Virus record (IMG/VR): IMGVR_UViG_3300010885_054390
Location: 1 to 64,000 of that record
DNA: 64,000 nt
Reading direction: 5' to 3' (one strand)
Source of the DNA: a virus
The notes under the pieces were generated by a model. The model saw only the letters and a list, made by a program, of their open reading frames with translations, made no database searches and had not been told where the DNA came from. The position numbers and the translations under genes were made by a program. Positions 23,381 to 38,265 of this stretch are shown here, piece by piece. Each line of letters starts with the position of its first letter. Positions within the stretch are counted from its first letter, which is position 1.

Positions 23381-23515
23381 TCGAGGGGTGTTAAGGATAG
23401 AAGCGTGGGCTGTCTCCCTTTCGGGGTTCCCAATTTTCGTCCGGAGTTTTCCTCCGACTCTAATCCCCTCATTATATATACGCCGTTTCCGGGGGCCAAA
23501 ATCAACCAAAAATAA

Positions 23516-23581
23516 TTTTTTTTTTTTGTAAGAGAGTCAATAATTAGCGAACGCGGGGCGGGGGTGGGGGCGGGAGGGGGC
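23516..23581. other. T12 run plus five G-runs: candidate genome terminus / pac region
   Basis: ggggcgggggtgggggcgggaggggg at 23555-23580 beside the TerS 3' end; k-mer composition switches here. Confidence 0.5.
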
Positions 23582-23697
23582 GTGTCTGAAGTCTGACGCC
23601 TGCGTCTGAAGACAGGGGTGCCCCCGTCATCCGATAAGTCGCACAATAGACAGTGTATCAACTACGTTGATATCTGTCTAACAATCAACGCAGTTGT

Positions 23698-24258
23698 TTA
23701 ACTGCCTTCGGCAGGCTTAACCGACGTTTCGATTGCTATCGAATCCCGAATCTGATTCGGATTCGACTTCAAATTGGGATTCGAAGCGAGGAAAGCGACA
23801 TTGATAATCGGACGATTATCACCTTTAACTTGCTGTGCTTCAATACCATAGACTGACTTCGCCACACTATGAACCTTGTTCATAGCGTTAAAAGTAGTGT
23901 CGACCTCTGAAACTGATACCATTGAACTCTGTTCAATAGCAACGAGGCCTCGGTCAACCTGTTTCTGCACCCTTTCAAGGTATCGTTTCTGTAAATTAGT
24001 AACATTGTCTTCGACAATCGACTGCTGTATTGCAATGGCTCTATTGGCTGTTTGCTCTAGTATTGCATCTCTCTCCTCGAACCATTTACCTCTTGATACC
24101 CAAGAGTTAATGGTTCCCAACTTGAGACCATACTTCTCTGCCAACTGATTGTTAGTGAGTCTAGTGGTCATGTAAGCAATCTTGACCTGCTCTTTAACGT
24201 TCTTCCCAACTCTATAACGTTTCCCGTTATTAGAGTTGCTCTGCTCTGTTAAGCTCAT
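23698..24258 (-). CDS. terS: Terminase small subunit (putative)
   Basis: HTH NNQLAEKYGLKLGTINSWVSRGKW, helical middle, C-terminal PIINVAFL; start at MSLTEQ behind TTGCTA-N16-TAGCAT. Confidence 0.7.
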   Translation of the reverse strand: MSLTEQSNSNNGKRYRVGKNVKEQVKIAYMTTRLTNNQLAEKYGLKLGTINSWVSRGKWFEERDAILEQTANRAIAIQQSIVEDNVTNLQKRYLERVQKQVDRGLVAIEQSSMVSVSEVDTTFNAMNKVHSVAKSVYGIEAQQVKGDNRPIINVAFLASNPNLKSNPNQIRDSIAIETSVKPAEGS

Positions 24259-24327
24259 CTTCAATCTATGCTACAAAGAGTTAGAACAATAGCAATACCG
24301 AAGCACGTTGAATCTTACGCGAGCCTT

Positions 24328-24508
24328 TTAATAGTGTATTGCATTGCAATACTCTATTAACCCTTGTCAACGAAGCACTTTCCTCTGTAGCAATTACCCC
24401 GTTTATATATGACTATTCAGATAGTCATATTTAAACGACTCTGAAAAGCGACGCCGTTTACCCTTGGATCCTTTAGATCCAAGGATAAACGAACAGAATC
24501 CTACAGAG
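24328..24508. repeat. Cluster of three long near-perfect inverted repeats
   Basis: 24328-24360, 24400-24437 and 24455-24491, each with 16-17 bp arms and one mismatch; outer stem CTCTGTAG/CTACAGAG. Confidence 0.85.
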
Positions 24509-24600
24509 AGGCGAACCTATGTCTGCACCAGCTTGCAAGCACCTAGTACGCAAAAAAGCGTACGTCATAGCGTACACATAACGCGACTTCTCACCTTCGG

Positions 24601-24630
24601 TGTCACCGCCGTTTAACCGACCTCAACCTA
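24601..24630 (+). promoter_or_regulatory. Early bipartite motif copy 1
   Basis: TGTCACCG-ccgtttaaccgac-CTCAACCTA. Confidence 0.75.
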
Positions 24631-24696
24631 TTTAGCGACATCGAAACTTGCCGTTGGCGAGATCGGCGTCGAACCCAAAAAAGGAAAATCAATAAC

Positions 24697-24795
24697 ATGA
24701 CAACATACGAACAAGCCTACACGGAACTCTGCGAACTCTTCGGAGTCGACAGCGACGAAACCCTTGCCATCAACCCCCCGTACCTAGTGGACTAG
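24697..24795 (+). CDS. 32-aa acidic peptide
   Basis: MTTYEQAYTELCELFGVDSDETLAINPPYLVD with aagga RBS; first ORF after motif 1. Confidence 0.5.
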   Translation: MTTYEQAYTELCELFGVDSDETLAINPPYLVD

Positions 24796-24820
24796 TCCAC
24801 TACACAAGGAGACCACCACG

Positions 24821-25129
24821 ATGAACCTACCCACCTACAGCGAAGCCGTAGCCACGGAGATCAGCACGCTCCGTAAGCGTTTGGAAGTGCTCGAGCAAAC
24901 CCTTTGCCTCCCTCCGAGGAAAGCCAAAAGCTCCCTCCCAAGCTGGCTGAATGACAAAGACCTCCGCTCCCACGAACAGAGGAGAGCCGAGTCCGTTCAC
25001 TCTGCGACGAAGCTCCGCATAGAGTCTGCCTACGTTGCCATCCTCGAAGGACGCTCGGCGTCACTCAAGGATTGTGCAAGGGAGCATCGAGTGAGTCGCT
25101 CAACCCTAAAAACTGCCTTCAAAAGCTGA
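24821..25129 (+). CDS. HTH-containing hypothetical protein
   Basis: aaggag RBS; C-terminal SLKDCAREHRVSRSTL. Confidence 0.6.
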   Translation: MNLPTYSEAVATEISTLRKRLEVLEQTLCLPPRKAKSSLPSWLNDKDLRSHEQRRAESVHSATKLRIESAYVAILEGRSASLKDCAREHRVSRSTLKTAFKS

Positions 25130-25148
25130 ACCAAAGGAGAACATACAC

Positions 25149-25244
25149 ATGACACCCGAAGCCCTCGACATCCTAGACACCATCGTAAGAGTAGCGATAC
25201 CCGTAGTCGTAACTGGCCTATTCGTAGCCTGCTTCCACAGGTGA
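25149..25244 (+). CDS. 31-aa single-TM peptide
   Basis: aaggag RBS; MTPEALDILDTIVRVAIPVVVTGLFVACFHR. Confidence 0.5.
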   Translation: MTPEALDILDTIVRVAIPVVVTGLFVACFHR

Positions 25245-25279
25245 AGAAAAGCCCGAAGCCTTCGACCACCCCATAGGGG

Positions 25280-25309
25280 TGTCACCGAAAGTTTAAACGG
25301 CTCAACCTA
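25280..25309 (+). promoter_or_regulatory. Early bipartite motif copy 2
   Basis: TGTCACCG-aaagtttaaacgg-CTCAACCTA, 6 nt before an ATG. Confidence 0.8.
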
Positions 25310-25315
25310 ATTACC

Positions 25316-25483
25316 ATGAACAACGAAACCGCAACCATCCTCGACGAACTCGAGCAACGAGTCTCTGATATGTATGTCAGCGACTTGTCTACTGGCGAGA
25401 ACAAAGGTGCATCACCCTTGGACTACGTCCGCTGGGCAATCGAGGAGATCGAAGCAAACCACCAACCCATCCTGAAAGGATAA
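25316..25483 (+). CDS. 55-aa acidic hypothetical protein
   Basis: MNNETATILDELEQRVSDMY...; below the ORF-track cutoff. Confidence 0.55.
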   Translation: MNNETATILDELEQRVSDMYVSDLSTGENKGASPLDYVRWAIEEIEANHQPILKG

Positions 25484-25490
25484 AAAAACC

Positions 25491-26078
25491 ATGAACAAAA
25501 CCCGCGAACAATGGCTACAGAAGGCAGTCGAAGCACTCGACTCGAAGCTCTTCAAGCCTAAAAACCTCTCGCTACCCAAACGCATCCGAGTATCCGTCGG
25601 ATGGCCAGGGGGGCGTGCAGACAGGAGCAAAGCTGTCGGTCAACACTGGAAGCCAACTGCCTCCTCTGACAACCACCACGAAATCTTCATCTCTCCGAAG
25701 ATCGCCTCGAACGGACTGGAAGTCCTGTCCACCTTGGCACATGAGCTTGTCCATGCACAAGTCTTCGCCGAGTACCCCGACGAAGGCCACGGGAAGAACT
25801 TTCGCCGAGTGGCCAACGCCATCGGCCTCGAAGGCGACCCGAAGGTGTGTGGTGCAGGTGAAAAGCTCCGCAACGGCTTACTCAAGGACTTCATCCTTCT
25901 CGAAGGCGATTTCCCCTCGGGAAGCATCGACTTCTCACAGCGGAAGAAGGACAGCACTCGTCTCATCAAGGCAGAGTGTAAGGCTTGCGGATTCGTAATC
26001 CGTACGTCCCGCAAGTGGATTGAGGACATCGGCCTGCCCATCTGCAAGTGTGGCGGAGATTTCCACGAACCCAAATAA
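25491..26078 (+). CDS. SprT-like zinc metalloprotease with C-terminal Zn ribbon
   Basis: TLAHELVHA...GHG.NF; CKACG...ICKCG. Confidence 0.75.
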   Translation: MNKTREQWLQKAVEALDSKLFKPKNLSLPKRIRVSVGWPGGRADRSKAVGQHWKPTASSDNHHEIFISPKIASNGLEVLSTLAHELVHAQVFAEYPDEGHGKNFRRVANAIGLEGDPKVCGAGEKLRNGLLKDFILLEGDFPSGSIDFSQRKKDSTRLIKAECKACGFVIRTSRKWIEDIGLPICKCGGDFHEPK

Positions 26079-26091
26079 CCACCCTAAAGGG

Positions 26092-26121
26092 TGTCACCGA
26101 AAGTTTAAACGACTCAACCTA
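26092..26121 (+). promoter_or_regulatory. Early bipartite motif copy 3
   Basis: TGTCACCG-aaagtttaaacga-CTCAACCTA. Confidence 0.8.
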
Positions 26122-26150
26122 ATTGGCCAACCGAAAGGAAAACAACGACC

Positions 26151-27239
26151 ATGAACCCATACAACCTCACACTCAACCAACTTCGCCAAGAATGTGCGAA
26201 GCGTGGCATCGGCTCCCCCAAATGGAGAGCCAACGCCATCGTCGACGAGCTCCGCTCTGCCCTGCAAACCGCAGATCGTGATACTGGCGACTACACACCC
26301 ACCCCAACCCCACAGGAGGACACACCATTGAAGACCGAAACCCCCACACCTACACCTAGCGGTGACGCATTGGCAAGCACACTGCTCCAAGCCCTGCTCC
26401 CTCACCTTCCACAGCAAGGCATCCAAGAGGCTCGAGTACGGCAAATCGTCGCCGAGATCATCGAAGCACGAAGCCCGAGGGAGGTTCGAGTTGAGCTCCC
26501 CTCTGGTGAGAAGGTTGACGTTGGAATTGTGCATCAATCGTTTAACCGCATCCTGCAAGCTGTCTCCGCAAACATCAGCGGTGGCATCCTGCTCGTCGGC
26601 GGTGCTGGTGCAGGGAAGACAACGACCTGCCACAAGGTGGCCGACGCCTTGAAGCTCCCCTTCCGCACCATCAGTGTGTGTAAGCAAACCACCCTCTCTC
26701 ACCTCGTCGGCTTTATCAACGTAAGCGGGGAGTATGTAAGCACACCCTTCCGTGAAGCCTACGAAAAAGGTGGAGTATTCCTCCTCGACGAGTTCGACGC
26801 TGGCAATGAGAACGTGGTGCTGGCTCTCAATTCAGCCCTTGCCAACGGCATCTGCGAGTTCCCCGACAAGCAGATCGAGCGACACAAGGACTTCCGTTGC
26901 CTTGCATCGGCCAACACCTACGGCACTGGTGCAACCCTGCAATTCGTCGGTAGGAATAAGCTCGACGGAGCAACCCTCGACCGCTTCGTGGTCATCGAGC
27001 ATGACTACGACTCGAAGCTCGAGATCGCCCTTTGCGGGAATGACAAGTGGGCAGAGCGTGTGGTGAGCATCCGCAAGTCCATCGACAAGCTGGGCATCCG
27101 CCACATCGTCAGCCCTCGGGCATCCATCAACGGAGCCAAGCTACTCGCCATCGGTTGGAAGCAGGCCGAGGTGGAGCAGGCGGTCATCTGGAAGGGCTTG
27201 GACAAGAGCGAGGTACAGCGAGTGCTGGCCACCCTCTAA
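26151..27239 (+). CDS. MoxR/CbbQ-like AAA+ ATPase
   Basis: GGAGAGKT, LLDEFD, SANTYG, LDGATLDRF, SPRASI. Confidence 0.88.
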   Translation: MNPYNLTLNQLRQECAKRGIGSPKWRANAIVDELRSALQTADRDTGDYTPTPTPQEDTPLKTETPTPTPSGDALASTLLQALLPHLPQQGIQEARVRQIVAEIIEARSPREVRVELPSGEKVDVGIVHQSFNRILQAVSANISGGILLVGGAGAGKTTTCHKVADALKLPFRTISVCKQTTLSHLVGFINVSGEYVSTPFREAYEKGGVFLLDEFDAGNENVVLALNSALANGICEFPDKQIERHKDFRCLASANTYGTGATLQFVGRNKLDGATLDRFVVIEHDYDSKLEIALCGNDKWAERVVSIRKSIDKLGIRHIVSPRASINGAKLLAIGWKQAEVEQAVIWKGLDKSEVQRVLATL

Positions 27240-27242
27240 AGA

Positions 27243-27272
27243 GGTCACCCATCCACAACCTACGTCAACCTA
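27243..27272 (+). promoter_or_regulatory. Early bipartite motif copy 4 (variant)
   Basis: GGTCACCC-atccacaacctac-GTCAACCTA; the downstream leader resembles that of copy 3. Confidence 0.6.
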
Positions 27273-27300
27273 ACTGCCAACCGAAAGGACAAACCTACCC

Positions 27301-28194
27301 ATGACAACCAAACGTTCCAACGCCTCGGACTCCTCCAAGGCAACACAAGTATTCCCGCTAACCTTCGAGAAGTTCCTCGAGATTGCGGGAGACCCCGACC
27401 CCGACCACAACAGCCGTTACAAGTCTGCGAACCAACAGCCCACGTCCAAGACATGGGCAGACGGAGTCGACTACTTCGAGAGCGTAAGGCGTCTCAAGAT
27501 CGGCTGGCCAGAGGGCGTGAAGAAAGCCCGTGAGTTAAGCTCGAAGCTCTATTCACGTTTAAACGCCGAGTACAGCTTCCAACGTGACATCAAGTTCGAC
27601 ACGACTGGTGACTGGTTCGACATCGGACGAGTGCTTGAAGGTGAGCCCGATTGCTGGGGTTCCGAGATCGAGCTTGACGACGAGTTCTCCAATGACAAGC
27701 GTGGGAAGATCGTTCGAGTGGCAGTGAATGTCGGGGCGTCCTGCTCCTATAGCTCGGAGCAAATCCTCCAACGGGGAGTGTATGCCCTCGCCATCGTCGA
27801 CCTACTCGAACGACTGGGCAAGAGCGTCGAGCTCACGGCCTCATGCAAGGTGGAGAAGAACGGCAAAATCTGGGGCTGGGAATTGCCCTTGAAGCAAGCG
27901 GGAGAAGAGCTCTCCCTTGACCGAGTGGCACACATCCTCGGTAGCCCTGCTGGCTTTCGCCGAAGCTGGTTCCGAGTCATCGAGCACACTGACTACCCCG
28001 ATTGCGGAAGCGGTCTCGGATGCCCTACAGACTGGACGGAGAGCGAGCTCAAGCAACGTCAGGTGGACATCTACATCGGAGCGTTGTTCTCGGGGAACAC
28101 CCCTTGGCAGGGCAAGACGGACACGAAGTTCATCATCGAGCAACTGGCCAAGGCGGGCATCAAGTTAGAGCGTGAGGAGGATGCGAAGGCATAA
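27301..28194 (+). CDS. VWA-like partner of the AAA+ ATPase
   Basis: DIGRVLEGEPDCW, degenerate MIDAS VNVGASCS, IVDLLERLGKSVE; adjacent to a MoxR-like ATPase. Confidence 0.65.
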   Translation: MTTKRSNASDSSKATQVFPLTFEKFLEIAGDPDPDHNSRYKSANQQPTSKTWADGVDYFESVRRLKIGWPEGVKKARELSSKLYSRLNAEYSFQRDIKFDTTGDWFDIGRVLEGEPDCWGSEIELDDEFSNDKRGKIVRVAVNVGASCSYSSEQILQRGVYALAIVDLLERLGKSVELTASCKVEKNGKIWGWELPLKQAGEELSLDRVAHILGSPAGFRRSWFRVIEHTDYPDCGSGLGCPTDWTESELKQRQVDIYIGALFSGNTPWQGKTDTKFIIEQLAKAGIKLEREEDAKA

Positions 28195-28212
28195 CGGATT
28201 TGGGCAGTGGGT

Positions 28213-28250
28213 ACTGGTGCTCGTGAGGTTCGAATCCTCACGGCATCGGT
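28213..28250 (+). ncRNA. tRNA T-loop minihelix
   Basis: ACTGGTGC-t-CGTGAGG-TTCGAAT-CCTCACG-GCATCGGT; intergenic; no D or anticodon arm. Confidence 0.45.
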
Positions 28251-28282
28251 TAAACGAAACACGAAACATAGGAGCACGAACA

Positions 28283-28552
28283 ATGAAAAGTTTTGCATCA
28301 TTCGAAAAACAATACAAGCCGACCAAGCGTACGCCGACAGCGGACGACCCTAGCGACGACATCCTCTTCGAAACCTACGGAGAGGACGAACAGCTAGTGC
28401 GGAGGACGAACCCGAAGCACGTTTGGACACTGCTCGACGGCGAGCACGAAACAATCATCTGTGCTGGTATGCACTTCTGCAACCGCATCAACTACCTCAT
28501 AACGGAGACCGCATGGGACGATAAAAACCTATGCTTCCGCTATGTCGACTAA
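28283..28552 (+). CDS. Conserved phage hypothetical protein
   Basis: FETYGED...HVWTLLDGE...G.H..NRI.Y.ITE motif; ggag RBS. Confidence 0.65.
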   Translation: MKSFASFEKQYKPTKRTPTADDPSDDILFETYGEDEQLVRRTNPKHVWTLLDGEHETIICAGMHFCNRINYLITETAWDDKNLCFRYVD

Positions 28553-28565
28553 AGGAGAACGAACA

Positions 28566-28775
28566 ATGGACAAATCAATCTACTCACTTGCGGACATTCA
28601 AAACATCTGCGACACCCACGAGTGGTCAGCACTCGTAAACATAGGCGGGGGACAAATAGAGGTGAGCGTTTACGACGATAGCGATGGCTTCGGCGTATTC
28701 ACCCCCACTGAAATCGATGCGGAGACGTACACCTTTAGGTTGTATGACTGCCCATCAAAAGGAGAAAACAAATGA
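28566..28775 (+). CDS. Hypothetical protein, paralog of 30026-30211
   Basis: aaggag RBS; shared IC....WSA and FG.F...TY.F.L.D. Confidence 0.6.
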   Translation: MDKSIYSLADIQNICDTHEWSALVNIGGGQIEVSVYDDSDGFGVFTPTEIDAETYTFRLYDCPSKGENK

Positions 28776-28930
28776 CACGAGGCGACACACTGCGAAAGAT
28801 TAGAAAGTTGACGTCATTCAAATCCGACATCGGGTTTGCAAACCTTGGACACGGAGAGGCAATCAGCCTCATCGAATGCGTCAACAAACTGGCTACACAA
28901 GCCCTACAGAAAGGAAAAAAGAAAAAATGA
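28772..28930 (+). CDS. 52-aa hypothetical protein
   Basis: aaggag RBS, ATGA overlaps at both ends; ends KGKKKK. Confidence 0.55.
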   Translation: MTRGDTLRKIRKLTSFKSDIGFANLGHGEAISLIECVNKLATQALQKGKKKK

Positions 28931-29321
28931 AACGAACCATTGAGATCGAAGACACCCTCGAGGAGCGGGTGGCGAATGCCATCGAAAGCGTACAAGACGA
29001 ACTCAAGTCCTACGTCGAACAGAATCCCGAGACTGAAGAGCTCCCATGTTTAAACAACGACTTGGACTACAGCGGTGCCATCCATGAGATCGTCGACGGA
29101 GCGGTGCCCATCTACACCTACGAGATCGAAACCACATGGTTCCTCCATGCAAGAGAGCTCGAGAGTGCCTACGAGAATGCGGGGCTCGGAGACAACCCCC
29201 GAGAGAACAACGGCATGAGTGCCATCTACTGCTACATCATGGAGCAAGTGCAGGAATGGTACCACAAACACGGCGAGGAATACTTCGAAAAGCTCCCGAA
29301 AGGAAAAAAGAAAAAATGAAA
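28909..29321 (+). repeat. Exact 24-bp direct repeat flanking the ocr-like gene
   Basis: GAAAGGAAAAAAGAAAAAATGAAA at 28909-28932 and 29298-29321. Confidence 0.85.
28927..29319 (+). CDS. Ocr-like (T7 gp0.3) anti-restriction DNA-mimic protein
   Basis: Acidic, 130 aa. AIHEIVDGAVPIYTYEI aligns with Ocr AIHMAADNAVPHYYADI; YENAGL with FEDSGL; YIMEQ with RIYEQ (Ocr sequence from memory). Confidence 0.7.
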   Translation: MKRTIEIEDTLEERVANAIESVQDELKSYVEQNPETEELPCLNNDLDYSGAIHEIVDGAVPIYTYEIETTWFLHARELESAYENAGLGDNPRENNGMSAIYCYIMEQVQEWYHKHGEEYFEKLPKGKKKK

Positions 29322-29474
29322 GACGCAACCCAAATCATCGAGGAGATCGAGGCACGACTCCTTGAGTACACAAACCTCGGCATCGATCATGCGAACGACC
29401 AGAACGCAGTGAACGAGCTCGAGAGTGCCGTAAACGAACTCCAACACCTACTCGAATGGATAAAACAAAAATGA
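29316..29474 (+). CDS. Hypothetical protein
   Basis: Start at the ATGA overlap (MKDATQ). Confidence 0.55.
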   Translation: MKDATQIIEEIEARLLEYTNLGIDHANDQNAVNELESAVNELQHLLEWIKQK

Positions 29475-29689
29475 ATACTATCACGAAATCTGTTCAAGCG
29501 TACATCGACCACCGCATCGGAGAAATTAACCGAGAGGTGGCCACGAAGCACGAAGAAGCGAAGCGTTCACAAGGTGAGCAACTCGGCTACATCCTCGGAT
29601 GGATAGGCGATTGCCAAGCGAGACGCAGTGAATTGCACGCCGTACAGAGCTTCCTCCGAAAACTAAACCCTAACCAAGAAAGCGTTTAA
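29471..29689 (+). CDS. Hypothetical protein
   Basis: ATGA overlap; helical. Confidence 0.55.
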   Translation: MNTITKSVQAYIDHRIGEINREVATKHEEAKRSQGEQLGYILGWIGDCQARRSELHAVQSFLRKLNPNQESV

Positions 29690-29694
29690 CCACT

Positions 29695-30033
29695 ATGGCT
29701 AATGCTAAAACATACAAACTGATGGACGGAGAGAAACGGAATCAGGCGAACCCTGACACCTTCTCCATCCCCGAACTCAACGAACGAAACAACCTAGCCC
29801 TCGACGAGTGCTATGCGAAGCTCGGCTTCGTCATGCCACGGCGAAAAAATAGGGTATCCGCAGAAAGAATGTGGGTACGAGTGAAGACGAAAGATGCGAA
29901 GGGCACCTACACTGGTGAGCTTGCCAACGAGCCAGCCTTCGTACCAAATCTATTTTTCGGAACGCCCGTCCGCTTCAAGGCGAAGCACGTACTCGACATT
30001 CAGATGGTGAAAGAGGAGGACAGCGATGAATAA
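29695..30033 (+). CDS. DUF2314-like protein
   Basis: ERMWVRV...YTGELANEP motif. Confidence 0.6.
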   Translation: MANAKTYKLMDGEKRNQANPDTFSIPELNERNNLALDECYAKLGFVMPRRKNRVSAERMWVRVKTKDAKGTYTGELANEPAFVPNLFFGTPVRFKAKHVLDIQMVKEEDSDE

Positions 30034-30211
30034 GACCTACACTGACGAACAAGTAAACGCGATCTGCGAGGAGTGGGGATGGAGTGCCTGCGAATGCTCG
30101 AACGAATACGAGAACAGCATTCAAGTATGCACCCATCGTCACGACGACTACTTCGGCAGATTCAATAAAATCACTGACGGAACCTACAACTTCGAACTAA
30201 AGGACGTTTAA
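30026..30211 (+). CDS. Hypothetical protein, paralog of 28566-28775
   Basis: ggagg RBS; shared residues with the paralog. Confidence 0.6.
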   Translation: MNKTYTDEQVNAICEEWGWSACECSNEYENSIQVCTHRHDDYFGRFNKITDGTYNFELKDV

Positions 30212-30213
30212 CC

Positions 30214-30399
30214 ATGAACAAACCAGTCAACAGATACCTCATCGACTTGGTAAAGTTTACCGAGCGACTTCGGGAACTGCGGGACAGCGATGCGAACCCT
30301 TGTAACGAGGAGAACGCAGAGGGCTTGTGCCCCTGCCACACCTTCGACCAAGCCATCGATCAACTCGAGAACGTGCAAAGCATTCTCAAAACTCTGTAA
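30214..30399 (+). CDS. Small Cys-containing hypothetical protein
   Basis: PC...CPCH motif. Confidence 0.5.
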   Translation: MNKPVNRYLIDLVKFTERLRELRDSDANPCNEENAEGLCPCHTFDQAIDQLENVQSILKTL

Positions 30400-30411
30400 A
30401 AAAAATCACCT

Positions 30412-30645
30412 ATGATGATATACACACAGGGAAACGCAAAGACTTCGGACGGAACACCAGCCTCCGTGCTTACTCGCCCCAAGCCACACGGCTTCGGCAT
30501 ACCACCCGAGCATTTGGCCAAGGCCGACCGCTATGTGGTGCTGGTAACAGACATCCGCGACCGCGAACCTCCGCATTCACTATGTGAGCTGTACGAGGCC
30601 GAAGCGTTTAAACCTTATTACTCGGAACGCATCGATCAACACTAA
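30412..30645 (+). CDS. Hypothetical protein
   Basis: Contiguous ORF. Confidence 0.5.
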   Translation: MMIYTQGNAKTSDGTPASVLTRPKPHGFGIPPEHLAKADRYVVLVTDIRDREPPHSLCELYEAEAFKPYYSERIDQH

Positions 30646-30694
30646 CAACTTTTCGTGGGACAAGACGTTGCAAATCAACGCAAAACCCCCCGAA

Positions 30695-30724
30695 TGTCAC
30701 CGAAACTAAACACACCTCAACCTA
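30695..30724 (+). promoter_or_regulatory. Early bipartite motif copy 5
   Basis: TGTCACCG-aaactaaacacac-CTCAACCTA, 10 nt before an ATG. Confidence 0.8.
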
Positions 30725-30734
30725 AAGGACAACC

Positions 30735-31241
30735 ATGAGCAACAACGAAAAACCAAACAACGACGAAACAAACGAAGCACAGAGACAAGCACGCCTCGAG
30801 GAGATCGGGAAGTGCATCACCGACTTCGTGAACGATGACCGCACTCCCGCCATACTCAAGTGGGGCTTACAGATTCTCTTCATCGCTACGTCCGATGACG
30901 ACACGAAGAGCGGAGTAGTAGGCGGTTTGCTGGCCTGCGGGCACAGAGCCTTCGACAACGCAATCTCCAAATCGCGAGAGGAGGGCAACGAAGCCTTGGC
31001 CAAGAAGCTCGAGAAAGATAAGAACGACATGATTAAGCTCGCCCTTCAAGTCGACTTCCGTGGTGCGGTAACCTCCGTACTGCGAACGAAGCTGGGCGAG
31101 ATTGCAGACGATGGCGAGGAGGCCGAGGAGGCACCCTCCCCGAAGGTGATAGTAGTCGAGCAAAAGAAACCAGTATCGGAGGACAACGTACTGCTACCCA
31201 AGCAGAAGAAGGAACCAAATCCCTTTGCAGGGAGGAACTAA
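30735..31241 (+). CDS. Hypothetical protein
   Basis: aagga RBS directly after motif 5. Confidence 0.65.
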   Translation: MSNNEKPNNDETNEAQRQARLEEIGKCITDFVNDDRTPAILKWGLQILFIATSDDDTKSGVVGGLLACGHRAFDNAISKSREEGNEALAKKLEKDKNDMIKLALQVDFRGAVTSVLRTKLGEIADDGEEAEEAPSPKVIVVEQKKPVSEDNVLLPKQKKEPNPFAGRN

Positions 31242-31242
31242 C

Positions 31243-31458
31243 ATGAGATTACAGACAAAAGAACAAATCCAAGACTGGCTCAAGAGCTACAAGAAGAACG
31301 ATTCATTTGCGATTCTCTTTTGGACAAAGGACGAGATAGAAGAAAACCTTGGACGTAAGATCAAGGAGACGGAGTGGAAAAGAGCGGTCAATGCCGTTGA
31401 CTCCGACAGCGAAGAGCAGGTGCTCGGGGAAAACATCGAAGAGCACTTGAGCGTCTAA
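31243..31458 (+). CDS. Hypothetical protein
   Basis: ggagg RBS. Confidence 0.55.
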   Translation: MRLQTKEQIQDWLKSYKKNDSFAILFWTKDEIEENLGRKIKETEWKRAVNAVDSDSEEQVLGENIEEHLSV

Positions 31459-31747: not shown

Positions 31748-31760
31748 GAAAATAAAAACT

Positions 31761-31970: not shown

Positions 31971-31971
31971 A

Positions 31972-32172
31972 ATGATATTCGAACGTGGAGAATATAAAGG
32001 CAACCCAACACTAATCATCAAGCGAGACGAGCGGGACAGATTTCCCTTTAGTCTCGGACTACGGAAGGCGGAGATGCTCCTCCAAACAGAGGTGCAAAAC
32101 CAACTCGAGAAGTTTGTGCTTGAACACAAGGTTGACGATGGGCTTGAGAACAATGATGGCGAACACGCATGA
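31972..32172 (+). CDS. Conserved hypothetical protein
   Basis: EYKGNPTLII...FSLGLRKA; ggagg RBS. Confidence 0.6.
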   Translation: MIFERGEYKGNPTLIIKRDERDRFPFSLGLRKAEMLLQTEVQNQLEKFVLEHKVDDGLENNDGEHA

Positions 32173-32390
32173 GTAGCCTCATAAACAAGCGGATGTTCAA
32201 GACGTACTTGCTTTCGCTATCGAAGGTAAATGCGGACAAACGCAACGAGGCTCGAAGGGAGATGGGGATACTTGCCAACCTAAAGCCCCACTCCCGAGTC
32301 TCAAAGGAAACCTACGACAACGCAACCGCCCATCTAATCAACTGGATGAAGGCACACATCATCGAAAAGAAAAAAGGAAAAACATTATGA
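32169..32390 (+). CDS. Small basic hypothetical protein
   Basis: ATGA overlaps at both ends. Confidence 0.55.
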   Translation: MSSLINKRMFKTYLLSLSKVNADKRNEARREMGILANLKPHSRVSKETYDNATAHLINWMKAHIIEKKKGKTL

Positions 32391-33378: not shown

Positions 33379-33833
33379 ACATCAAAACATTCTTAAATAA
33401 ACATCTATCGAAGAGACTCAAGGCCGAGTGCAACCGCTTGGGCGAACGTTACCGCAAGCTGGAAGCCAAGGACGAAGAAACGGGCTCTGACTCTTTCCAC
33501 GGCTCCGATGAGCCAAGCGAAATCAGAGATCGGATTATCAATATGATGGCTCCTTCGGTTAAACGCTACGCCAAAAACCTGTTCAACAATCCAGTCGACA
33601 AGGACGAAGATAGCTTTGAGTTCTTTGACTCCTTGGGCAATGACCAGCTAGAAGTCTTCTGCATCAGGCGTGGCAAAAAAGGATGGGTGGCAAGCGTTTC
33701 AACTAACTACTGGGACGCCCCCGCAGATACCTGCGACGACTCCACCTGCGTGCCTACACCAGCGGAAGCCTTCGAGTGGGGCTTTGGCGACGCAATGGCT
33801 TACCACTTCATCAACGAGAAAGTAGGAAGATAA
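33375..33833 (+). CDS. Hypothetical protein
   Basis: Start at the ATGA overlap. Confidence 0.55.
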   Translation: MNIKTFLNKHLSKRLKAECNRLGERYRKLEAKDEETGSDSFHGSDEPSEIRDRIINMMAPSVKRYAKNLFNNPVDKDEDSFEFFDSLGNDQLEVFCIRRGKKGWVASVSTNYWDAPADTCDDSTCVPTPAEAFEWGFGDAMAYHFINEKVGR

Positions 33834-33836
33834 TAT

Positions 33837-34094
33837 ATGAGCAAAACATTACTTGGCCGAGAGTTTAAAAACATCCCGACTGGCGACCTAGTCAAGCTAG
33901 TGCATGACAAGCATCAGGAGCTTAACAAGTACCCGAACAGCACCCGCATTCGAATGGAGTTTAACTTCTCAACGCAAGAGCTGTGGAAGCGAGGCTGGAA
34001 ACTCGAATACGTTACGACCCTTAAACTGCACCCGCCCCGCAAGGAACGCAGCGAAAGGTTTGTGACGTTTAAACAAAAGGAGGCCGTGGCATGA
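33837..34094 (+). CDS. Hypothetical protein
   Basis: Contiguous ORF. Confidence 0.55.
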   Translation: MSKTLLGREFKNIPTGDLVKLVHDKHQELNKYPNSTRIRMEFNFSTQELWKRGWKLEYVTTLKLHPPRKERSERFVTFKQKEAVA

Positions 34095-34492
34095 ACAGCA
34101 AAGACTTCAACCTAAAGTTTCGAAAGGAAATCCAGACCCTCAACTTCGTATACCGAAGCACGTTCTTTGTTCACTGGTTCCTTCGCAGGTTCATCTTCGA
34201 AGGCGTCTTCGCGGGGAACGCTGACTTTAACGGCAACTCCGTAAGCGTAATCAGCGTGCCCGTTTTAAGGTTTTTCCTAGCCGACCTCGAGCGTCTTGTC
34301 ATAAACTTGCACGACGAGATAGCTCGCATGAACAACTCACTCCCAAAGAAAATGCGTATACCTTTGAAGCTCCCCATCTACGAGAGCTACGCCAAGCTCA
34401 AGGCAAAGTCCGAGGCGAAGGCACGGCGGAACTCCAAAGTTTTAGTATCGTTTAACCATGAGACCAGCGACGGAACAGGCATGAATGACTGA
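34091..34492 (+). CDS. Hypothetical protein
   Basis: ggagg RBS, ATGA overlap. Confidence 0.55.
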   Translation: MNSKDFNLKFRKEIQTLNFVYRSTFFVHWFLRRFIFEGVFAGNADFNGNSVSVISVPVLRFFLADLERLVINLHDEIARMNNSLPKKMRIPLKLPIYESYAKLKAKSEAKARRNSKVLVSFNHETSDGTGMND

Positions 34493-34754
34493 CCTCGAAC
34501 CTATCCCCTCGAGAAAGAGATGCCCCTCCTGCCAGCAGGAAACACTGGAAGGCGGAATAATAGACGACTACGTTGCCAACATCCGAGGCTTTGAGATCGT
34601 AATCCGAAACATAGAAAGAGACCGATGCTCTAACTGCGGGGAGCAGTGCTACGCTTGGAGCCAATGCCTCAAGATCGACCAAGCAATCAGAGACGCTAGG
34701 AAAGCGGGGGTACGGCACGACATCGGGCTGTACGACTTTCGTTTGGACGACTAA
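34485..34754 (+). CDS. YgiT/MqsA-type zinc finger protein
   Basis: CPSC...IVIRNI...CSNCGE. Confidence 0.65.
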   Translation: MTDLEPIPSRKRCPSCQQETLEGGIIDDYVANIRGFEIVIRNIERDRCSNCGEQCYAWSQCLKIDQAIRDARKAGVRHDIGLYDFRLDD

Positions 34755-34798
34755 AAATAATCGTTGTCCTTTGCAGAATACGTGATAGTAATCGATTC

Positions 34799-34996
34799 AT
34801 GGCACAGCACAAACACTACGAAGTAAGGGTTCCTCGGAGCCACGTTGAAGTCCACAAGGTTGTGGCGGAAGACGAAGCACACGCCAAGCGTTGTGTGCTG
34901 AACGGCGAGTCGCAAGACGTAAACGTTGAGCTTGCCCCCTACAAGTCCGCCGACGAAACCAGCACCTCCGATTGGTCAGTATCCGAAGTATTGTGA
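34799..34996 (+). CDS. Small acidic hypothetical protein
   Basis: VVAEDEAHA motif; promoter-like TTGTCC-N16-TAGTAA-N7-ATG. Confidence 0.55.
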   Translation: MAQHKHYEVRVPRSHVEVHKVVAEDEAHAKRCVLNGESQDVNVELAPYKSADETSTSDWSVSEVL

Positions 34997-35234
34997 AGCA
35001 ACTTCGTTTGGAGTTCTGCGAAAGCCTAAAGTGCTGGGTTGTTAAAAACGGCAAGTGGCGTTTTGGGCACAGAGTATTTAGAGATAAAGCCAAAGCCGAA
35101 AAGTTTCTCAAAGAAATTACCCTTAAAAAATAACTCCGCTGCTGCGTTTAGACGCTGTTTCTTTGGCATCCCGAAACAAGTTTTGCTCAAAAATCAACCG
35201 CAAGTCTTTGTGTATCAATTTAAAACCCTCGAAA

Positions 35235-35264
35235 TGTCACCGAAACACGGGCGACCTCAACCTA
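35235..35264 (+). promoter_or_regulatory. Early bipartite motif copy 6
   Basis: TGTCACCG-aaacacgggcgac-CTCAACCTA, 6 nt before ATG 35271. Confidence 0.8.
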
Positions 35265-35270
35265 TGTGGC

Positions 35271-35555
35271 ATGGCAACCGAAGGTAAACTAAAGTCCGCA
35301 AGGCTCGCCGAGACCACCCGCTCTATGGCCAAGCTAATTCAACTCGCCCTAGTTCGCCTTGGGGCTGACCCCAGTGCCCTTGTCGCAAGAAAGACTGACC
35401 TTCGAGGCTCGAAGGGCGGGCTCACCTTCGGCGAGCTCATGTACTGGTTAGCCTTTTCAATAAATGCCCTCGAGTTTAAATGCAAAAAGATTTTACCAGC
35501 AAACGAAGCCATACAAAGAATCCAGAGATGGAAGAAAGTGAAAACAATACTATGA
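35271..35555 (+). CDS. Basic hypothetical protein
   Basis: Start re-called at MATEGK after motif 6. Confidence 0.55.
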   Translation: MATEGKLKSARLAETTRSMAKLIQLALVRLGADPSALVARKTDLRGSKGGLTFGELMYWLAFSINALEFKCKKILPANEAIQRIQRWKKVKTIL

Positions 35556-35869
35556 AAACAGCACACGCAACCGCAGAAGAACAACAAGCACAGAATATAC
35601 TTGATATGCAAAAGGCAAGCCAGTTCCTCAACTGCCATCGGGGACGCTACATCATCGGACGGGCTCTCTACGAGACGTACCAAAAGGTGAAGGACGAGGA
35701 GCCCTCGGACGCAGCGGACATGAAGTTTCTCGGGGAGACTTTGTTCCAAATCGGCTGGCTCTCCGCCTTTGTGATGAAGGATAGAAACGTCATCAAGCAA
35801 CAAATGGATAGCATTCGCAAGCACCTCAAAACAGCGGGGAAACGGAAAACTAAAATTGGAAAGGCATAA
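35552..35869 (+). CDS. Hypothetical protein
   Basis: ATGA overlap; RGRYIIGRAL...EPSDAADM motif. Confidence 0.55.
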   Translation: MKTAHATAEEQQAQNILDMQKASQFLNCHRGRYIIGRALYETYQKVKDEEPSDAADMKFLGETLFQIGWLSAFVMKDRNVIKQQMDSIRKHLKTAGKRKTKIGKA

Positions 35870-36119
35870 TTTTATGGTACCTAAATTAGACTTGCTGAAA
35901 GAAGCCTGCGGACACTACCTTTCCTCTTGGACTGGAACCAAGACTGGCGAGGAGATTCTTGAGGCCGTTACCAAGGGCAACTCGGAGGTAGAGGTTTGGC
36001 AACCCTTCGAAAACTGGTCGCCCGAAAACTTGGCCGAACAGATCGAAGTTACCGCAGAATCACTCACCAACCTCTACAAAGAAGCCTATGAACATGGAAA
36101 GGAGTCCGCAACCAAATGA
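35856..36119 (+). CDS. Acidic hypothetical protein
   Basis: VWQPFENW motif. Confidence 0.55.
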   Translation: MERHNFMVPKLDLLKEACGHYLSSWTGTKTGEEILEAVTKGNSEVEVWQPFENWSPENLAEQIEVTAESLTNLYKEAYEHGKESATK

Positions 36120-36385
36120 ATAAAGCGATCTTACTATTACTAGCCATCGGAGCCTCGGCGAAAGCAAACCCGCCGACCATTATCGGGCAGGGCGGAGAAT
36201 ACTTGGGCACACTATCCGCTAACCCCTTTGAGCCCTCGAGCACATCTAATCCCTACGGATTATATGGGAGCGAATACAGCCCAGTCAGCTTGAGTGACCC
36301 CTTCGGAGCCTTCGGGAGCCCCTACAGCACCGAGTCCGCTACCAACGAATACTTGGTCAGCGAAACATTGGAGCTCGATAAATGA
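36116..36385 (+). CDS. Secreted small protein with PYG.YGS.YS repeats
   Basis: Signal peptide; NPYGLYGSEYS and DPFGAFGSPYS. Confidence 0.6.
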   Translation: MNKAILLLLAIGASAKANPPTIIGQGGEYLGTLSANPFEPSSTSNPYGLYGSEYSPVSLSDPFGAFGSPYSTESATNEYLVSETLELDK

Positions 36386-36813
36386 AGGGTAAAAAAACGA
36401 AGCTCGAAGCAATTCTAGTTGACCCCGTTGAAAGAAGCATAAGCCTTGTTCCGCATGGCGAGGACTTGGACGAGGTGTATGCAACCATAGGCTGCGATAC
36501 CATCTGTGCCACACAAATGCCGTTTAACCACACAATGTTCTTGGACGACAACGGACTTTGCCGACCCTTGAAAGAGATTAACCAACGTGGCCTCTTTTAT
36601 ATGGATGGAGCAAAACAGCCCTTCGCGGGCAAGGGACTGATTTTTCATTCCACCGCTGACGGAGGATTGGAATCGTGCTTCCTGCTTGTCGAGCAAGTGG
36701 AAGAGTTGATTCGTTGGAGGCCGAAGAGCCAACCAATGACAGAATCCGAGAAACGGATTGCAACTCAAATACAAATCATCCCCTTTGGAGGTATTAGAAA
36801 TCCTAATGAATAA
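36382..36813 (+). CDS. DUF3846-like protein
   Basis: AILVDP...IGCD...MFLDDNGL...FAGKGLI. Confidence 0.6.
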   Translation: MKGKKTKLEAILVDPVERSISLVPHGEDLDEVYATIGCDTICATQMPFNHTMFLDDNGLCRPLKEINQRGLFYMDGAKQPFAGKGLIFHSTADGGLESCFLLVEQVEELIRWRPKSQPMTESEKRIATQIQIIPFGGIRNPNE

Positions 36814-37255
36814 TAGACTACTCAAATTGAAGCGTAACTGGCTCAAAGCGGACAAAGTTGCCAAAACTCTTACCCGCAAGAAATGGGCTATCTACCGCAA
36901 GACAAGTTCTGCCTATAACAAAGTGACCTCAATAGAGAGCGCCTACCAAGACTTGTTTGTTAAAAGCCTAGTCAAAACCGAAGAGCCGACAACTTCCGAT
37001 AGGCTACGTGAAATCGGGCGACTACTCACAGCTAATAAGCTGGCTTGGTCGGTTTTCCGCAAGACCGACAGCGAAAGAGGCTCTCATTATCGTATAACCA
37101 TTCGAGGAAACAAAAACGTCTCGAGAATTACGAAAAGTTTTCTCGGGGTACAGCTATCCGCCTTTGCGGATGATGAAATCCAACGTTGCCTCGATGAGGA
37201 GAAGGCTACGCTCACTTACATTGTTGGAATCTATGAGGAGGTTGAAAATGAATAA
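36806..37255 (+). CDS. Hypothetical protein
   Basis: ggagg RBS before MNNRLL. Confidence 0.55.
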   Translation: MNNRLLKLKRNWLKADKVAKTLTRKKWAIYRKTSSAYNKVTSIESAYQDLFVKSLVKTEEPTTSDRLREIGRLLTANKLAWSVFRKTDSERGSHYRITIRGNKNVSRITKSFLGVQLSAFADDEIQRCLDEEKATLTYIVGIYEEVENE

Positions 37256-37607
37256 TAGAGACGAATACGAAGATGATCTAAGGGAGCAGTGTAAGTGGGA
37301 CGAGTTCAGGGCTAGACAACTAGACAGGGAGGACAGGGCGAATCAGACAGGCGACTACGCCCCAAAGGACGCCGAAGGAAAAGGCTGGACTCCGTCTTAC
37401 TCGGACATAGAGTGGACTAAACAGCTAATAAACAGCCTAAAAGAAGGGGGCACATGGCTTGTCCCCGCCAACAAGTCTATTTGGACTTTTCGGCAAGAGG
37501 CCAAGGAAGCCCACCTAACATCAGGGGACGCCAATGAAGAAACAAACTCCCGCATCAAAACAATCCTTCAAGAATACTTGGGGTACAACATCTTGGTATC
37601 TCAGTGA
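37248..37607 (+). CDS. Hypothetical protein
   Basis: ggagg RBS before MNNRDE. Confidence 0.55.
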   Translation: MNNRDEYEDDLREQCKWDEFRARQLDREDRANQTGDYAPKDAEGKGWTPSYSDIEWTKQLINSLKEGGTWLVPANKSIWTFRQEAKEAHLTSGDANEETNSRIKTILQEYLGYNILVSQ

Positions 37608-37825
37608 GCAACTTAGGTTCCCCCGTACTTCTTCGGCACAAGGCCAAGGCTTGTCTCGAGGAGTCCGAGATGTCTTTGGCTCTGGAAAGCCTATCGGGTC
37701 TTCAACAGAGACACAAAATGCTGGAAGAAAACCTACAACTTACTCAGAAACTGCTTTTCAGCTACCTTTCGACCACTCGAAAGCTGGCCGAGGAGATAGC
37801 CGTCCTCCGAAAAAACAGACGATAG
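37604..37825 (+). CDS. Coiled-coil protein, possibly the N-terminal part of a -1 frameshift fusion
   Basis: GTGA overlap; ends CGA AAA AAC AGA CGA TAG. Confidence 0.5.
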   Translation: MSNLGSPVLLRHKAKACLEESEMSLALESLSGLQQRHKMLEENLQLTQKLLFSYLSTTRKLAEEIAVLRKNRR

Positions 37826-38244
37826 CCTTCCTTGTTTCGCTTGTAGCCTTGCTCTTCTACCCTTCTTTTGCCACCACAAAGGAAAGCATTCCCGTAGAAG
37901 CAGTTAAACAGGTCAAAAGACCCCGGGCAGTAAAACATCGTTTAACCGTTTATTACCCCGGGGAAGATCAATGGACTTCAAAGTGCCAAAGTTCTAGCGG
38001 GTATACCTTAAAAAATGGGGTCAGCATTGCCACCGATCAGAAGCTCTATGACTATGGGGATAAGGTGTTTATCGAAGGCTTGGGCGAAAGGATTGTGCAC
38101 GACACGGGCACAGCCGTACGCGAACGCAGAGCTAGTGGTGGCAGGTACCCGATCATTGACGTTTTCTTTAAATCAAAGGCCGAGGCCATTCGCTTTTCGA
38201 ATCAGGTAAAATACGCAAACGTCTACCTTGTTGACAATAAGTGA
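37810..38244 (+). CDS. 3D-domain (MltA-like) peptidoglycan hydrolase with N-terminal TM/signal; start uncertain
   Basis: LTVYYPG...IATD...YG..V.IEGLG.RIVHDTG.A...IIDVFF..AIRF. Confidence 0.75.
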   Translation, partial: KKQTIAFLVSLVALLFYPSFATTKESIPVEAVKQVKRPRAVKHRLTVYYPGEDQWTSKCQSSSGYTLKNGVSIATDQKLYDYGDKVFIEGLGERIVHDTGTAVRERRASGGRYPIIDVFFKSKAEAIRFSNQVKYANVYLVDNK

Positions 38245-38265
38245 TAGTATAAATGCCTTGACCAT

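What the first reader, a model, noticed from the sequence alone, without database searches (positions are those of the whole stretch)
23493..37922. 14.4-kb zone with no CCGG (and almost no GCGC) starting at the presumed terminus
Seen: scanning line by line I found no CCGG between 23489 and 37923. About 55-60 would be expected at this GC content, and CCGG is common everywhere else in the window. The first GCGC I saw in the zone is at 36938. The zone begins at the G-run next to TerS and covers the early genes, including the Ocr-like gene. Established: T7 and T5 purge restriction sites from first-entering DNA. Inference: slow or staged rightward injection from about 23.5 kb, with an early product that neutralises 4-cutter Type II systems. 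Ocr classically blocks Type I/BREX, so an unknown Type II inhibitor may be among the small ORFs.
Basis: partly seen in the sequence, partly recalled or inferred. Interest (0 to 1): 0.75.

Follow-up and report, generated by a model that had tools for sequence, protein, structure and literature searches.

The report
Restriction-site-free early region of lake phage
A 14.4-kb block of early genes in an uncultured 80-kb lake phage has lost almost every copy of seven short palindromes that restriction enzymes cut, which fits this DNA meeting the host's enzymes first, as in phages T5 and T7, though entry order is only inferred.

Summary
There is no CCGG from 23490 to 37922 and one GCGC. ACNGT, GGNCC, GCNGC, CTNAG and CCNGG are purged over the same span. 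In 32 zone genes these seven families total 7 sites. Synonymous-codon shuffles predict about 204. Five control palindromes sit at expectation, and the rest of the genome carries 19 such sites per kb.

The left edge is sharp and lies in non-coding DNA, at a conserved T-run, G-run and GTCGCACAATAG element. The right edge recovers gradually between 34 and 42 kb. The zone matches an early regulon: six GTCACC-N15-TCAACCTA promoter-like motifs, all rightward and found nowhere else. It holds a true Ocr homologue (fold match to T7 Ocr, Z 9.3).

Relatives with 36-39% primase identity purge the same module but different palindrome sets. A sister lineage keeps CTNAG. No DNA methyltransferase gene was found.

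Best reading: host Type II restriction selects on a leading region exposed before the phage's protection works, as in T5 and T7. Polar entry and a physical end at 23.5 kb are inferred. The record is a circularised assembly.

This scan has noted similar islands in other uncultured phages. Verdict: a new member of a known kind, with a stronger purge than the part of T5 tested here.

The parts
23493..37922 (.). Zone purged of CCGG, GCGC, ACNGT, GGNCC, GCNGC, CTNAG and CCNGG, and partly of CGCG. Between 23651 and 34047 only one such site remains (25605).
23516..23527 (+). T12 run at the exact left edge. Non-coding DNA to its left still carries sites (23296, 23332, 23369, 23441, 23489, 23493).
   Evidence: also present in the sister lineage L086/L084
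23555..23580 (+). G-run GGGGCGGGGGTGGGGGCGGGAGGGGG, single copy in the genome. Runs of the same type are single-copy in four relatives and sit at the purge start in G009 and G011.
23638..23672 (+). Conserved non-coding element GTCGCACAATAG..TGTATCAAC followed by a hairpin. It is single-copy, always on the + strand, and lies at the zone start in lineages with only 39% primase identity.
23698..24264 (-). 188-aa basic protein with an N-terminal HTH and a long helical hairpin, either a TerS candidate or an early regulator. It lies inside the purged zone on the opposite strand.
24328..24491 (.). Three near-perfect 16-17-nt inverted repeats between the HTH gene and the first early promoter motif. 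They look like operators.
24602..24630 (+). Early promoter-like motif GTCACC-N15-TCAACCTA, copy 1 of 6
   Evidence: a co-varying form occurs in L086
25281..25309 (+). Early promoter-like motif, copy 2
26093..26121 (+). Early promoter-like motif, copy 3
27244..27272 (+). Early promoter-like motif, copy 4
30696..30724 (+). Early promoter-like motif, copy 5
35236..35264 (+). Early promoter-like motif, copy 6, the last one. The purge starts to weaken near here.
25491..26078 (+). SprT-like zinc-protease domain protein
   Evidence: PF10263, E 6.8e-10
26151..27239 (+). MoxR/CobS-type AAA_5 ATPase, followed by a DUF7192 protein at 27301-28194
28927..29319 (+). Ocr-family homologue (candidate DNA mimic, anti-Type I/BREX)
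37923..42204 (+). Recovery stretch at the end of the rightward block. The seven families return at 5-11 per kb against 19 per kb elsewhere. Genes are a 3D-domain protein, a small-molecule-type methyltransferase, DUF4406 and two 2OG-Fe(II) oxygenases.
42201..53588 (-). Context: 3,795-aa polyvalent protein (LPD38 domain), conserved next to the zone in all relatives. It is not an N4-type RNA polymerase.

Best explanation
The zone is the early-gene block of an uncultured freshwater phage, and selection has cleared it of the target sites of host Type II restriction enzymes. The sites were removed by choosing synonymous codons and codon pairs that avoid at least seven short palindromes. This part is shown. 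The likely reason is that the block must be in the cell, unmodified and transcribed, before the phage's protection works, while the other 66 kb (about 1,270 such sites) becomes exposed only later. This part is inferred. The most likely route is polar entry of the DNA starting at the T-run/G-run element near 23.5 kb and moving rightward, slowly or in stages, perhaps driven by transcription from the six zone-specific promoters. Exposure would then fall with distance, which would give the graded right edge. The zone carries an Ocr homologue for Type I/BREX systems. By elimination, it should also encode an unidentified function that shields later DNA from many Type II enzymes.
For: Purge and statistics. 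The seven families total 7 sites against 204 expected in genes, and 14 against about 280 over the whole zone. Only palindromes are affected. The three most depleted of all 256 4-mers are CCGG, GCGC and CGCG. Both orientations of the non-palindromic members are lost. GANTC, GTNAC, TCNGA, CANTG and ACGT are at expectation. The minus-strand gene and the non-coding DNA inside the zone are purged too. Evolution: L086 is 70-77% identical in DNA yet still has 2 sites in 7.9 kb for six families, and it keeps 19 CTNAG. Relatives with 36-39% primase identity and no DNA similarity in the zone purge the same module with different sets: G009 CCGG; G001/G002 CCGG, GCGC and ACGT; G003/G004 GCGC and CGCG; others GTAC. 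Of 48 non-redundant loci, 9 show a purge, none do in the reversed control, and none do for non-palindromic control words. Edges: sharp on the left at a conserved element and graded on the right. Early regulon: promoter-like motifs occur only in the zone, all rightward, and co-vary in the sister lineage. Ocr fold. No DNA methyltransferase gene. Precedent: restriction acts on T5-like phages only through sites in the first-step-transfer DNA (PMC10644984), and on T7-like phages only through the leading region (PMC12455610).
Against: No reads or virions were available, so the order of DNA entry and the physical ends are not observed. The genome assembles as a circle, and the relatives' 'terminal repeats' are 69-127-bp assembly overlaps at non-homologous places. 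That also fits headful packaging, where no fixed end enters first. No protector against Type II enzymes was identified, and most zone proteins are of unknown function. Four of ten whole relatives show little or no purge. There is no non-coding 'stop' region at the right edge.
Confidence: 0.6

Rival explanations
1. The whole genome enters at once. Only the early block is naked and accessible, and the rest is shielded physically, for example by co-injected virion proteins such as the giant polyvalent protein, or by staying condensed or compartmentalised until protection is in place.
For: A 3,795-aa polyvalent protein of the kind thought to be injected sits next to the zone in every relative. The assembly is circular, so a fixed end is not shown. 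P1 DarA/DarB are cited as a precedent for injected shielding proteins (PMC12455610).
Against: A shield would have to stop exactly at the T/G-run and fade gradually over 34-42 kb. No DNA-coating domain was found in the polyvalent protein.
Confidence: 0.15
2. The purged words are targets of the phage's own early nucleases that destroy host DNA. The zone must survive while they act, and the rest of the genome arrives or is made later.
For: In T5 the host DNA is degraded at the first-step stage, and how the phage spares its own DNA is unknown (PMC10644984). The scan noted a phage that protects itself from its own nuclease by site avoidance (e1-5750267, not checked here).
Against: Seven specificities would need several nucleases, and no nuclease family was found among zone proteins. 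The motif sets differ between close relatives (CTNAG), as expected for changing host enzyme repertoires.
Confidence: 0.07
3. The zone is a recently acquired mosaic block from a donor phage that avoids these words across its whole genome. On this view the pattern reflects ancestry and not selection acting in this genome.
For: The zone differs in composition: GC up to 0.57, AT skew +0.3, different dinucleotide frequencies. Its gene content is almost unshared with relatives.
Against: The purge persists at 70-77% DNA identity. It recurs at the same module in relatives with unrelated zone sequences. The left edge falls in conserved non-coding DNA, and the right edge is graded instead of a clean junction.
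Confidence: 0.05
4. Selection acts on the early messenger RNAs, for example to escape an RNA-cutting enzyme, and not on the DNA.
Against: All purged words are palindromes. Both orientations of their non-palindromic members are lost. The antisense-oriented HTH gene and the untranscribed spacers are purged too.
Confidence: 0.02

Closest known systems
First-step-transfer (pre-early) DNA of phage T5/BF23
   Same: A leading sub-genomic segment of small host-takeover genes where restriction sites matter, while sites elsewhere are tolerated by an unknown mechanism (PMC10644984). It makes up a similar share of the genome (8% in T5, 18% here).
   Different: There is no detectable sequence relationship. 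No large non-coding stop region lies at the distal edge, and the edge is graded. A long terminal repeat cannot be tested here. The purge is much stronger. With the same test, T5's segment shows only partial depletions against the next 40 kb: AGCT 21 of 49, CTNAG 12 of 34, CCNGG 2 of 12.
Leading early region of T7-type phages (Autographiviridae), entered by transcription and carrying ocr
   Same: Early genes point inward from the leading end behind their own promoters. An Ocr homologue is present. Restriction is decided by motifs in the first-injected region only (PMC12455610). Time-ordered exposure fits a graded edge.
   Different: This phage is unrelated: 80 kb, a giant polyvalent protein, and no single-subunit RNA polymerase seen. 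Ocr lies 5.4 kb from the edge, not first. The purged words are Type II-type palindromes, which Ocr is not known to counter.
Leading region of conjugative plasmids
   Same: It is the first DNA to enter, is rich in anti-defence genes, and shows some depletion of short palindromes and higher GC (bioRxiv 10.1101/2025.04.03.647016). Several zone domain families here are uncharacterised DUFs plus a SprT-like protease.
   Different: The entry route differs (single-stranded conjugative transfer), and the depletion reported there is modest and seen only in some plasmid groups.
Restriction-word-free early islands noted by this scan in other uncultured phages (e1-5857633, e1-5786494, e1-5956204, e1-5739397)
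   Same: Sharply bounded blocks of small early genes that lack many short palindromes, and that recur in relatives (AI notes, not checked here).
   Different: Those are different phage groups (actinophages, a ~200-kb marine phage) with larger islands, several described as sharp at both edges. Here the right edge is graded and the left edge is a defined G-run element.

Membership tests
Restriction-site avoidance driven by Type II R-M systems | The depleted words are short palindromes, and non-palindromic words of like composition are not depleted | tested here: met
   The three most depleted of all 256 4-mers are palindromes. Seven palindrome families are purged while five others sit at expectation. 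Non-palindromic control words gave 0 of 48 loci.
Restriction-site avoidance driven by Type II R-M systems | Depletion goes beyond what protein sequence and codon usage predict, and is symmetric between strands | tested here: met
   Codon shuffles gave 7 observed against 204 expected. Both orientations are depleted. The opposite-strand gene and the spacers are purged.
Restriction-site avoidance driven by Type II R-M systems | The host carries enzymes for the avoided words | not testable with these tools
   The host is unknown. All relatives come from freshwater metagenomes.
T5-type first-step-transfer region | Site depletion or sensitivity is confined to a leading sub-genomic segment of pre-early genes | tested here: met
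   That the segment leads is inferred.
T5-type first-step-transfer region | The segment lies at a physical end, inside a long direct terminal repeat | not testable with these tools
   The assembly is circularised and no reads are held.
T5-type first-step-transfer region | A long non-coding, repeat-rich injection-stop region lies at the distal edge | tested here: not met
   Genes are close-packed around 37.9 kb and the edge is graded over 34-42 kb. The repeat-rich non-coding DNA is at the proximal edge.
T7-type leading early region | An Ocr-family gene lies in the early block | tested here: met
   AlphaFold2 model pLDDT 92.8. Best structural match is T7 Ocr 1s7z_A, Z 9.3, rmsd 3.2 A, 103 of 106 residues aligned, with the next hit at Z 5.7.
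T7-type leading early region | Early promoters point inward from the leading end | tested here: inconclusive
   Six (G000) and eight (L086) promoter-like motifs are all rightward and confined to the zone. Promoter activity and the position of the end are not shown.
Ocr family (PF08684) | Sequence match to the family model | tested here: inconclusive
   The window protein has no Pfam hit at E <= 0.01. The PHROG ocr-like family matches at E 2.7e-4. Some 62-70%-identical homologues carry PF08684. A profile search against PDB sequences found nothing.
Ocr family (PF08684) | Strongly acidic, DNA-like surface | tested here: inconclusive
   pI 4.8, with D+E 20% and K+R 12%, and a basic KGKKKK tail. 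From memory, this is less acidic than T7 Ocr.
Small terminase subunit (TerS) | N-terminal HTH followed by a helical-hairpin oligomerisation core, matching solved TerS structures | tested here: inconclusive
   The model has an HTH at 23-59 and helices at 61-113 and 118-139, with pLDDT 68.7. The Foldseek top hit is 2ao9, a putative nonameric TerS (PMC7672466), at E 0.16. VIA-align ranks generic HTH proteins first and places 2ao9 at Z 4.8. PHROG TerS families match at E 9e-6 and 2e-4.
Small terminase subunit (TerS) | The gene is next to the large terminase gene | tested here: not met
   TerL is at 11121-13130 on the minus strand, 10.6 kb away. Three operator-like palindromes upstream fit a regulator equally well.

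The most novel reading that the evidence does not exclude
This phage family has a so far unknown, broad-acting way of shielding late-entering DNA from many different Type II restriction enzymes. It would be encoded among the roughly 35 uncharacterised early ORFs, for example the SprT-like protease or the AAA ATPase/DUF7192 pair. Its DNA would be drawn in polarly from the G-run end by transcription from a private promoter class, possibly read by a factor injected as part of the giant polyvalent protein. The graded site density would then be a sequence record of how fast protection builds up.
Probability: 0.3. Interest if true: 0.8.

Novelty: new member of a known kind. Interest (0 to 1): 0.6.

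Why it matters
How T5 protects its late-entering DNA from Type II enzymes is still unsolved after 45 years (PMC10644984). This is an unrelated phage family with the same logic and a far cleaner signal, plus natural variation: close relatives differ in which words are purged. Comparative genomics could therefore narrow down the protecting genes. The result also shows that the first-exposed part of a phage genome, and the restriction repertoire it faces, can be read from sequence alone in uncultured viruses. Whole-genome tests of site avoidance would miss this.

Tried and rejected
N4-like phage with a virion RNA polymerase: rejected. The 3,795-aa ORF carries LPD38 and weak ART-PolyVal domains.

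Self-methylation: no match to PF00145, PF01555 or PF02086 in the genome. The methyltransferase at 38266-39078 is a generic small-molecule type (Methyltransf_11), and the neighbouring 2OG-Fe(II) oxygenases are generic, so a 5mC/TET-type hypermodification idea was dropped.

Record ends as physical ends: rejected, because an ORF spans the junction.

The CCGG gap in G009 has exactly the same length (14,434 bp), which raised the idea of a shared cassette. There is no DNA similarity, so it is a coincidence.

Megablast and TerL tblastn against cultured phages found nothing.

Rfam found nothing in the boundary region.

Sigma-70 promoter and terminator scans were at chance level.

Foldseek alone missed the Ocr match.

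A profile search of PDB sequences with the Ocr-like and HTH families found nothing useful.

The host was not identified.


Full report
WHAT THE DNA IS

The window is bases 1-64000 of an 80,254-bp single-contig virus record. The record is a circularised assembly. A 535-aa minus-strand ORF runs across its ends.

The gene map:
- 42-13130 (minus strand): structural genes and TerL (11121-13130).
- 13432-23174 (plus strand): replication genes, including a helicase, an exonuclease, a family A polymerase and a DUF5906 primase at 18831-20999.
- 21198-21280: a tRNA-Tyr gene.
- 23175-23697: a 520-bp non-coding stretch.
- 23698-24264 (minus strand): an HTH gene.
- About 24.7 to 42.2 kb (plus strand): close-packed small genes.
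- From 42201 (minus strand): a 3,795-aa polyvalent protein with an LPD38 domain, followed by more structural genes.

The phage is not N4-like. No cultured phage matches it. Relatives are numerous in freshwater metagenomes.

THE OBSERVATION

The finding holds exactly. No CCGG occurs between 23489 and 37923, out of 270 in the genome, and there is one GCGC. The density elsewhere predicts about 59 to 62 CCGG. A Markov model of the zone itself predicts 40 CCGG and 31 GCGC. CG and GC dinucleotides are not depleted in the zone.

The effect is wider than reported. Over the same span:
- ACNGT: 1 observed, about 30 expected.
- GGNCC: 1 observed, about 31 expected.
- GCNGC: 5 observed, about 55 expected.
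- CTNAG: 4 observed, 25-49 expected.
- CCNGG: 1 observed, 13-24 expected.
- CGCG is reduced about three-fold.

I shuffled synonymous codons among 32 zone genes, which keeps the proteins and the zone's own codon usage. The seven families then total 204 expected against 7 observed. GANTC, GTNAC, TCNGA, CANTG and ACGT are at expectation, and TCGA is in excess. Both orientations of the non-palindromic members, such as GCAGC and GCTGC, are lost. The minus-strand HTH gene and the spacers are also purged. The constraint therefore acts on double-stranded DNA and on palindromes. Genes outside the zone show no CCGG avoidance.

SHAPE OF THE ZONE

The seven families together run at 19.4 sites per kb outside the zone. 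The count falls from 15 in the kb before the edge to 0, and only one site lies between 23651 and 34047. The density then climbs per kb as 1, 3, 2, 11, 6, 5, 9, 10, 17 from 34 kb to 42 kb. So the left edge is sharp and the right edge is graded.

The left edge lies inside non-coding DNA. Sites are present up to 23493. Then come a T12 run (23516-23527), a G-run (23555-23580) and the element GTCGCACAATAG..TGTATCAAC with a hairpin (23638-23672).

WHAT THE ZONE CONTAINS

All are on the plus strand, each lies just upstream of a gene, and they occur only between 24602 and 35264. The sister lineage L086 has eight copies of a co-varying form, GTCACG-N16-GCAACCTA, again only in its zone. This looks like a private early-promoter class.

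Three operator-like palindromes lie between the HTH gene and the first motif.

Recognisable proteins are few:
- a SprT-like protease;
- an AAA_5 ATPase with a DUF7192 neighbour;
- DUF2314, DUF6878, DUF6915 and DUF3846 proteins;
- the protein at 28927-29319.

That last protein has 438 homologues at 60-70% identity, and some of them carry the Pfam ocr family. Its AlphaFold2 model has pLDDT 92.8. The best structural match among 48,161 chains is T7 Ocr (Z 9.3, rmsd 3.2 A, 103 of 106 residues), with the next hit at Z 5.7. It is less acidic than expected for a strong DNA mimic (pI 4.8).

The genome has no match to the three main DNA methyltransferase families.

RELATIVES

Ten whole relatives share the gene order. 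Their primase identity is 36-39% and their TerL identity 50-55%. Their zones share almost no genes with this one, apart from the HTH gene and one 73-aa protein. There is no DNA similarity in the zone.

The same module is nevertheless purged, with lineage-specific sets:
- G009: CCGG only, over 14.4 kb.
- G011: CCGG and GGNCC.
- G001 and G002: CCGG, GCGC, ACGT and others.
- G003 and G004: GCGC, CGCG, GCNGC and ACGT.
- G006, G007 and G010: none. G008: a weak CCGG reduction.

In a fixed-window test on 48 non-redundant loci, 9 showed at least one purged palindrome downstream of the replication module. None did in the reversed comparison, and none did for non-palindromic control words. GTAC appeared as a further purged word.

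The sister contig L086 is 70-77% identical in DNA across the zone. It has only 2 sites for six of the families in 7.9 kb but keeps 19 CTNAG. The set of avoided words therefore changes between close relatives, as a changing host enzyme repertoire would predict.

G-runs of the type G6-T-G5-(A/T)-G5 are single-copy in G000, G007, G008, G009 and G011. In G009 and G011 the run sits directly after the last CCGG before the purge. The GTCGCACAATAG element is single-copy, on the plus strand and at the zone start in 21 loci from distant lineages. Homologues of the HTH gene lie 0.5-1 kb beyond the G-run in G007, G009 and G011, and about 4.5 kb beyond it in G008.

INTERPRETATION

Selection by Type II restriction enzymes, limited to this block, is well supported. 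Why only this block is inferred. The sites elsewhere must be irrelevant when restriction can act.

The established precedents are T5 and its relatives, where restriction works only through sites in the first-step-transfer DNA (PMC10644984), and T7-type phages, where only motifs in the first-injected region matter (PMC12455610).

Three features fit polar, slow or staged entry from about 23.5 kb better than they fit an inserted foreign block:
- a sharp edge at a conserved cis element;
- rightward promoters;
- a gradual recovery of sites.

The graded edge and the lack of a distal non-coding stop region resemble T7-type transcription-coupled entry more than the T5 two-step mechanism.

As a calibration, T5's own first-step DNA shows only partial depletions in the same test, measured against the next 40 kb of its genome. 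The purge here is much stronger.

WHAT IS NOT SHOWN

The physical end is not shown. The 'terminal repeats' of relatives are 69-127-bp assembly overlaps at non-homologous positions, and headful packaging is not excluded.

The TerS assignment of the HTH protein is inconclusive. It has an HTH plus a long helical hairpin. Its Foldseek top hit is 2ao9, a putative TerS, at E 0.16. But VIA-align ranks generic HTH proteins first, the gene is far from TerL, and it has operator-like sites upstream.

By my hand count from the tables, long contigs of relatives end about 27 times within 9.4 kb downstream of the primase and 4 times upstream. One ends exactly at a G-run, and one ends 43 nt after the start of the conserved element. 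This could reflect real ends, poor sequencing of G-runs, or strain diversity in the zone.

No protector against Type II enzymes was identified.

RIVALS AND NOVELTY

[quoted passage not shown] Each is weighed under Rival explanations. The last two conflict with the data.

The principle is known, and this scan has noted similar islands in other uncultured phages (unchecked notes). I therefore file this as a new member of a known kind. It is notable for its strength, its seven-word breadth, its defined left-edge element, its private promoter class and its natural variation between relatives.

Noticed in passing
window 23493-37922 and the matching zones of G001, G002, G004, G009, G011: TCGA is enriched in the purged zone: 133 of the window's 319 sites, and 108 against 84 expected in codon shuffles. 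It also looks enriched in several relatives' zones. It is the opposite of the purged words and is unexplained.
   Followed up: partly
window 25291, 26103, 27557, 29048, 30606, 32560, 34067 and 27 other places in the genome: The 8-bp palindrome GTTTAAAC occurs 34 times in the genome and is not avoided in the zone. Two copies sit in the spacers of early promoter-like motifs. Earlier notes of the scan flagged its excess.
   Followed up: partly
G009 (L188-L191), CCGG gap 68004 to 11900 across the contig ends: The CCGG-free gap in this distant relative is 14,434 bp if the contig is closed, the same number as in the window, although the sequences are unrelated. I take it as coincidence.
   Followed up: yes
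L086:14285-22166 compared with window 23493-31400: The sister lineage keeps 19 CTNAG sites where the window has none, and uses a co-varied promoter motif (GTCACG-N16-GCAACCTA). This is a natural pair for finding what changed with the host.
   Followed up: partly
loci L002-L161, downstream of the primase gene: By hand count, long relatives' contigs end about 27 times within 9.4 kb downstream of the primase and 4 times upstream. L016 ends exactly at a G-run, and L089 ends 43 nt after the start of the GTCGCACAATAG element.
   Followed up: partly
G008 and G011 (about 4.3-4.7 kb after primase start), G009 (5.0-5.3 kb): A second non-coding element with facing G-runs and C-runs around an AT-rich core lies between the replication genes and the zone. 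It could be an origin or a packaging site.
   Followed up: no
window 32169-32390 (+): A 73-aa very basic protein (pI 10.3) is the only zone protein conserved in nearly all relatives (35-41% identity in 8 of 10 genomes). It has no family match.
   Followed up: no
window 80141..1491 across the record junction (window part 1-1491, minus strand): An open frame of 535 codons runs seamlessly across the ends of the record, which shows that the record was cut at an arbitrary point of a circular assembly.
   Followed up: yes
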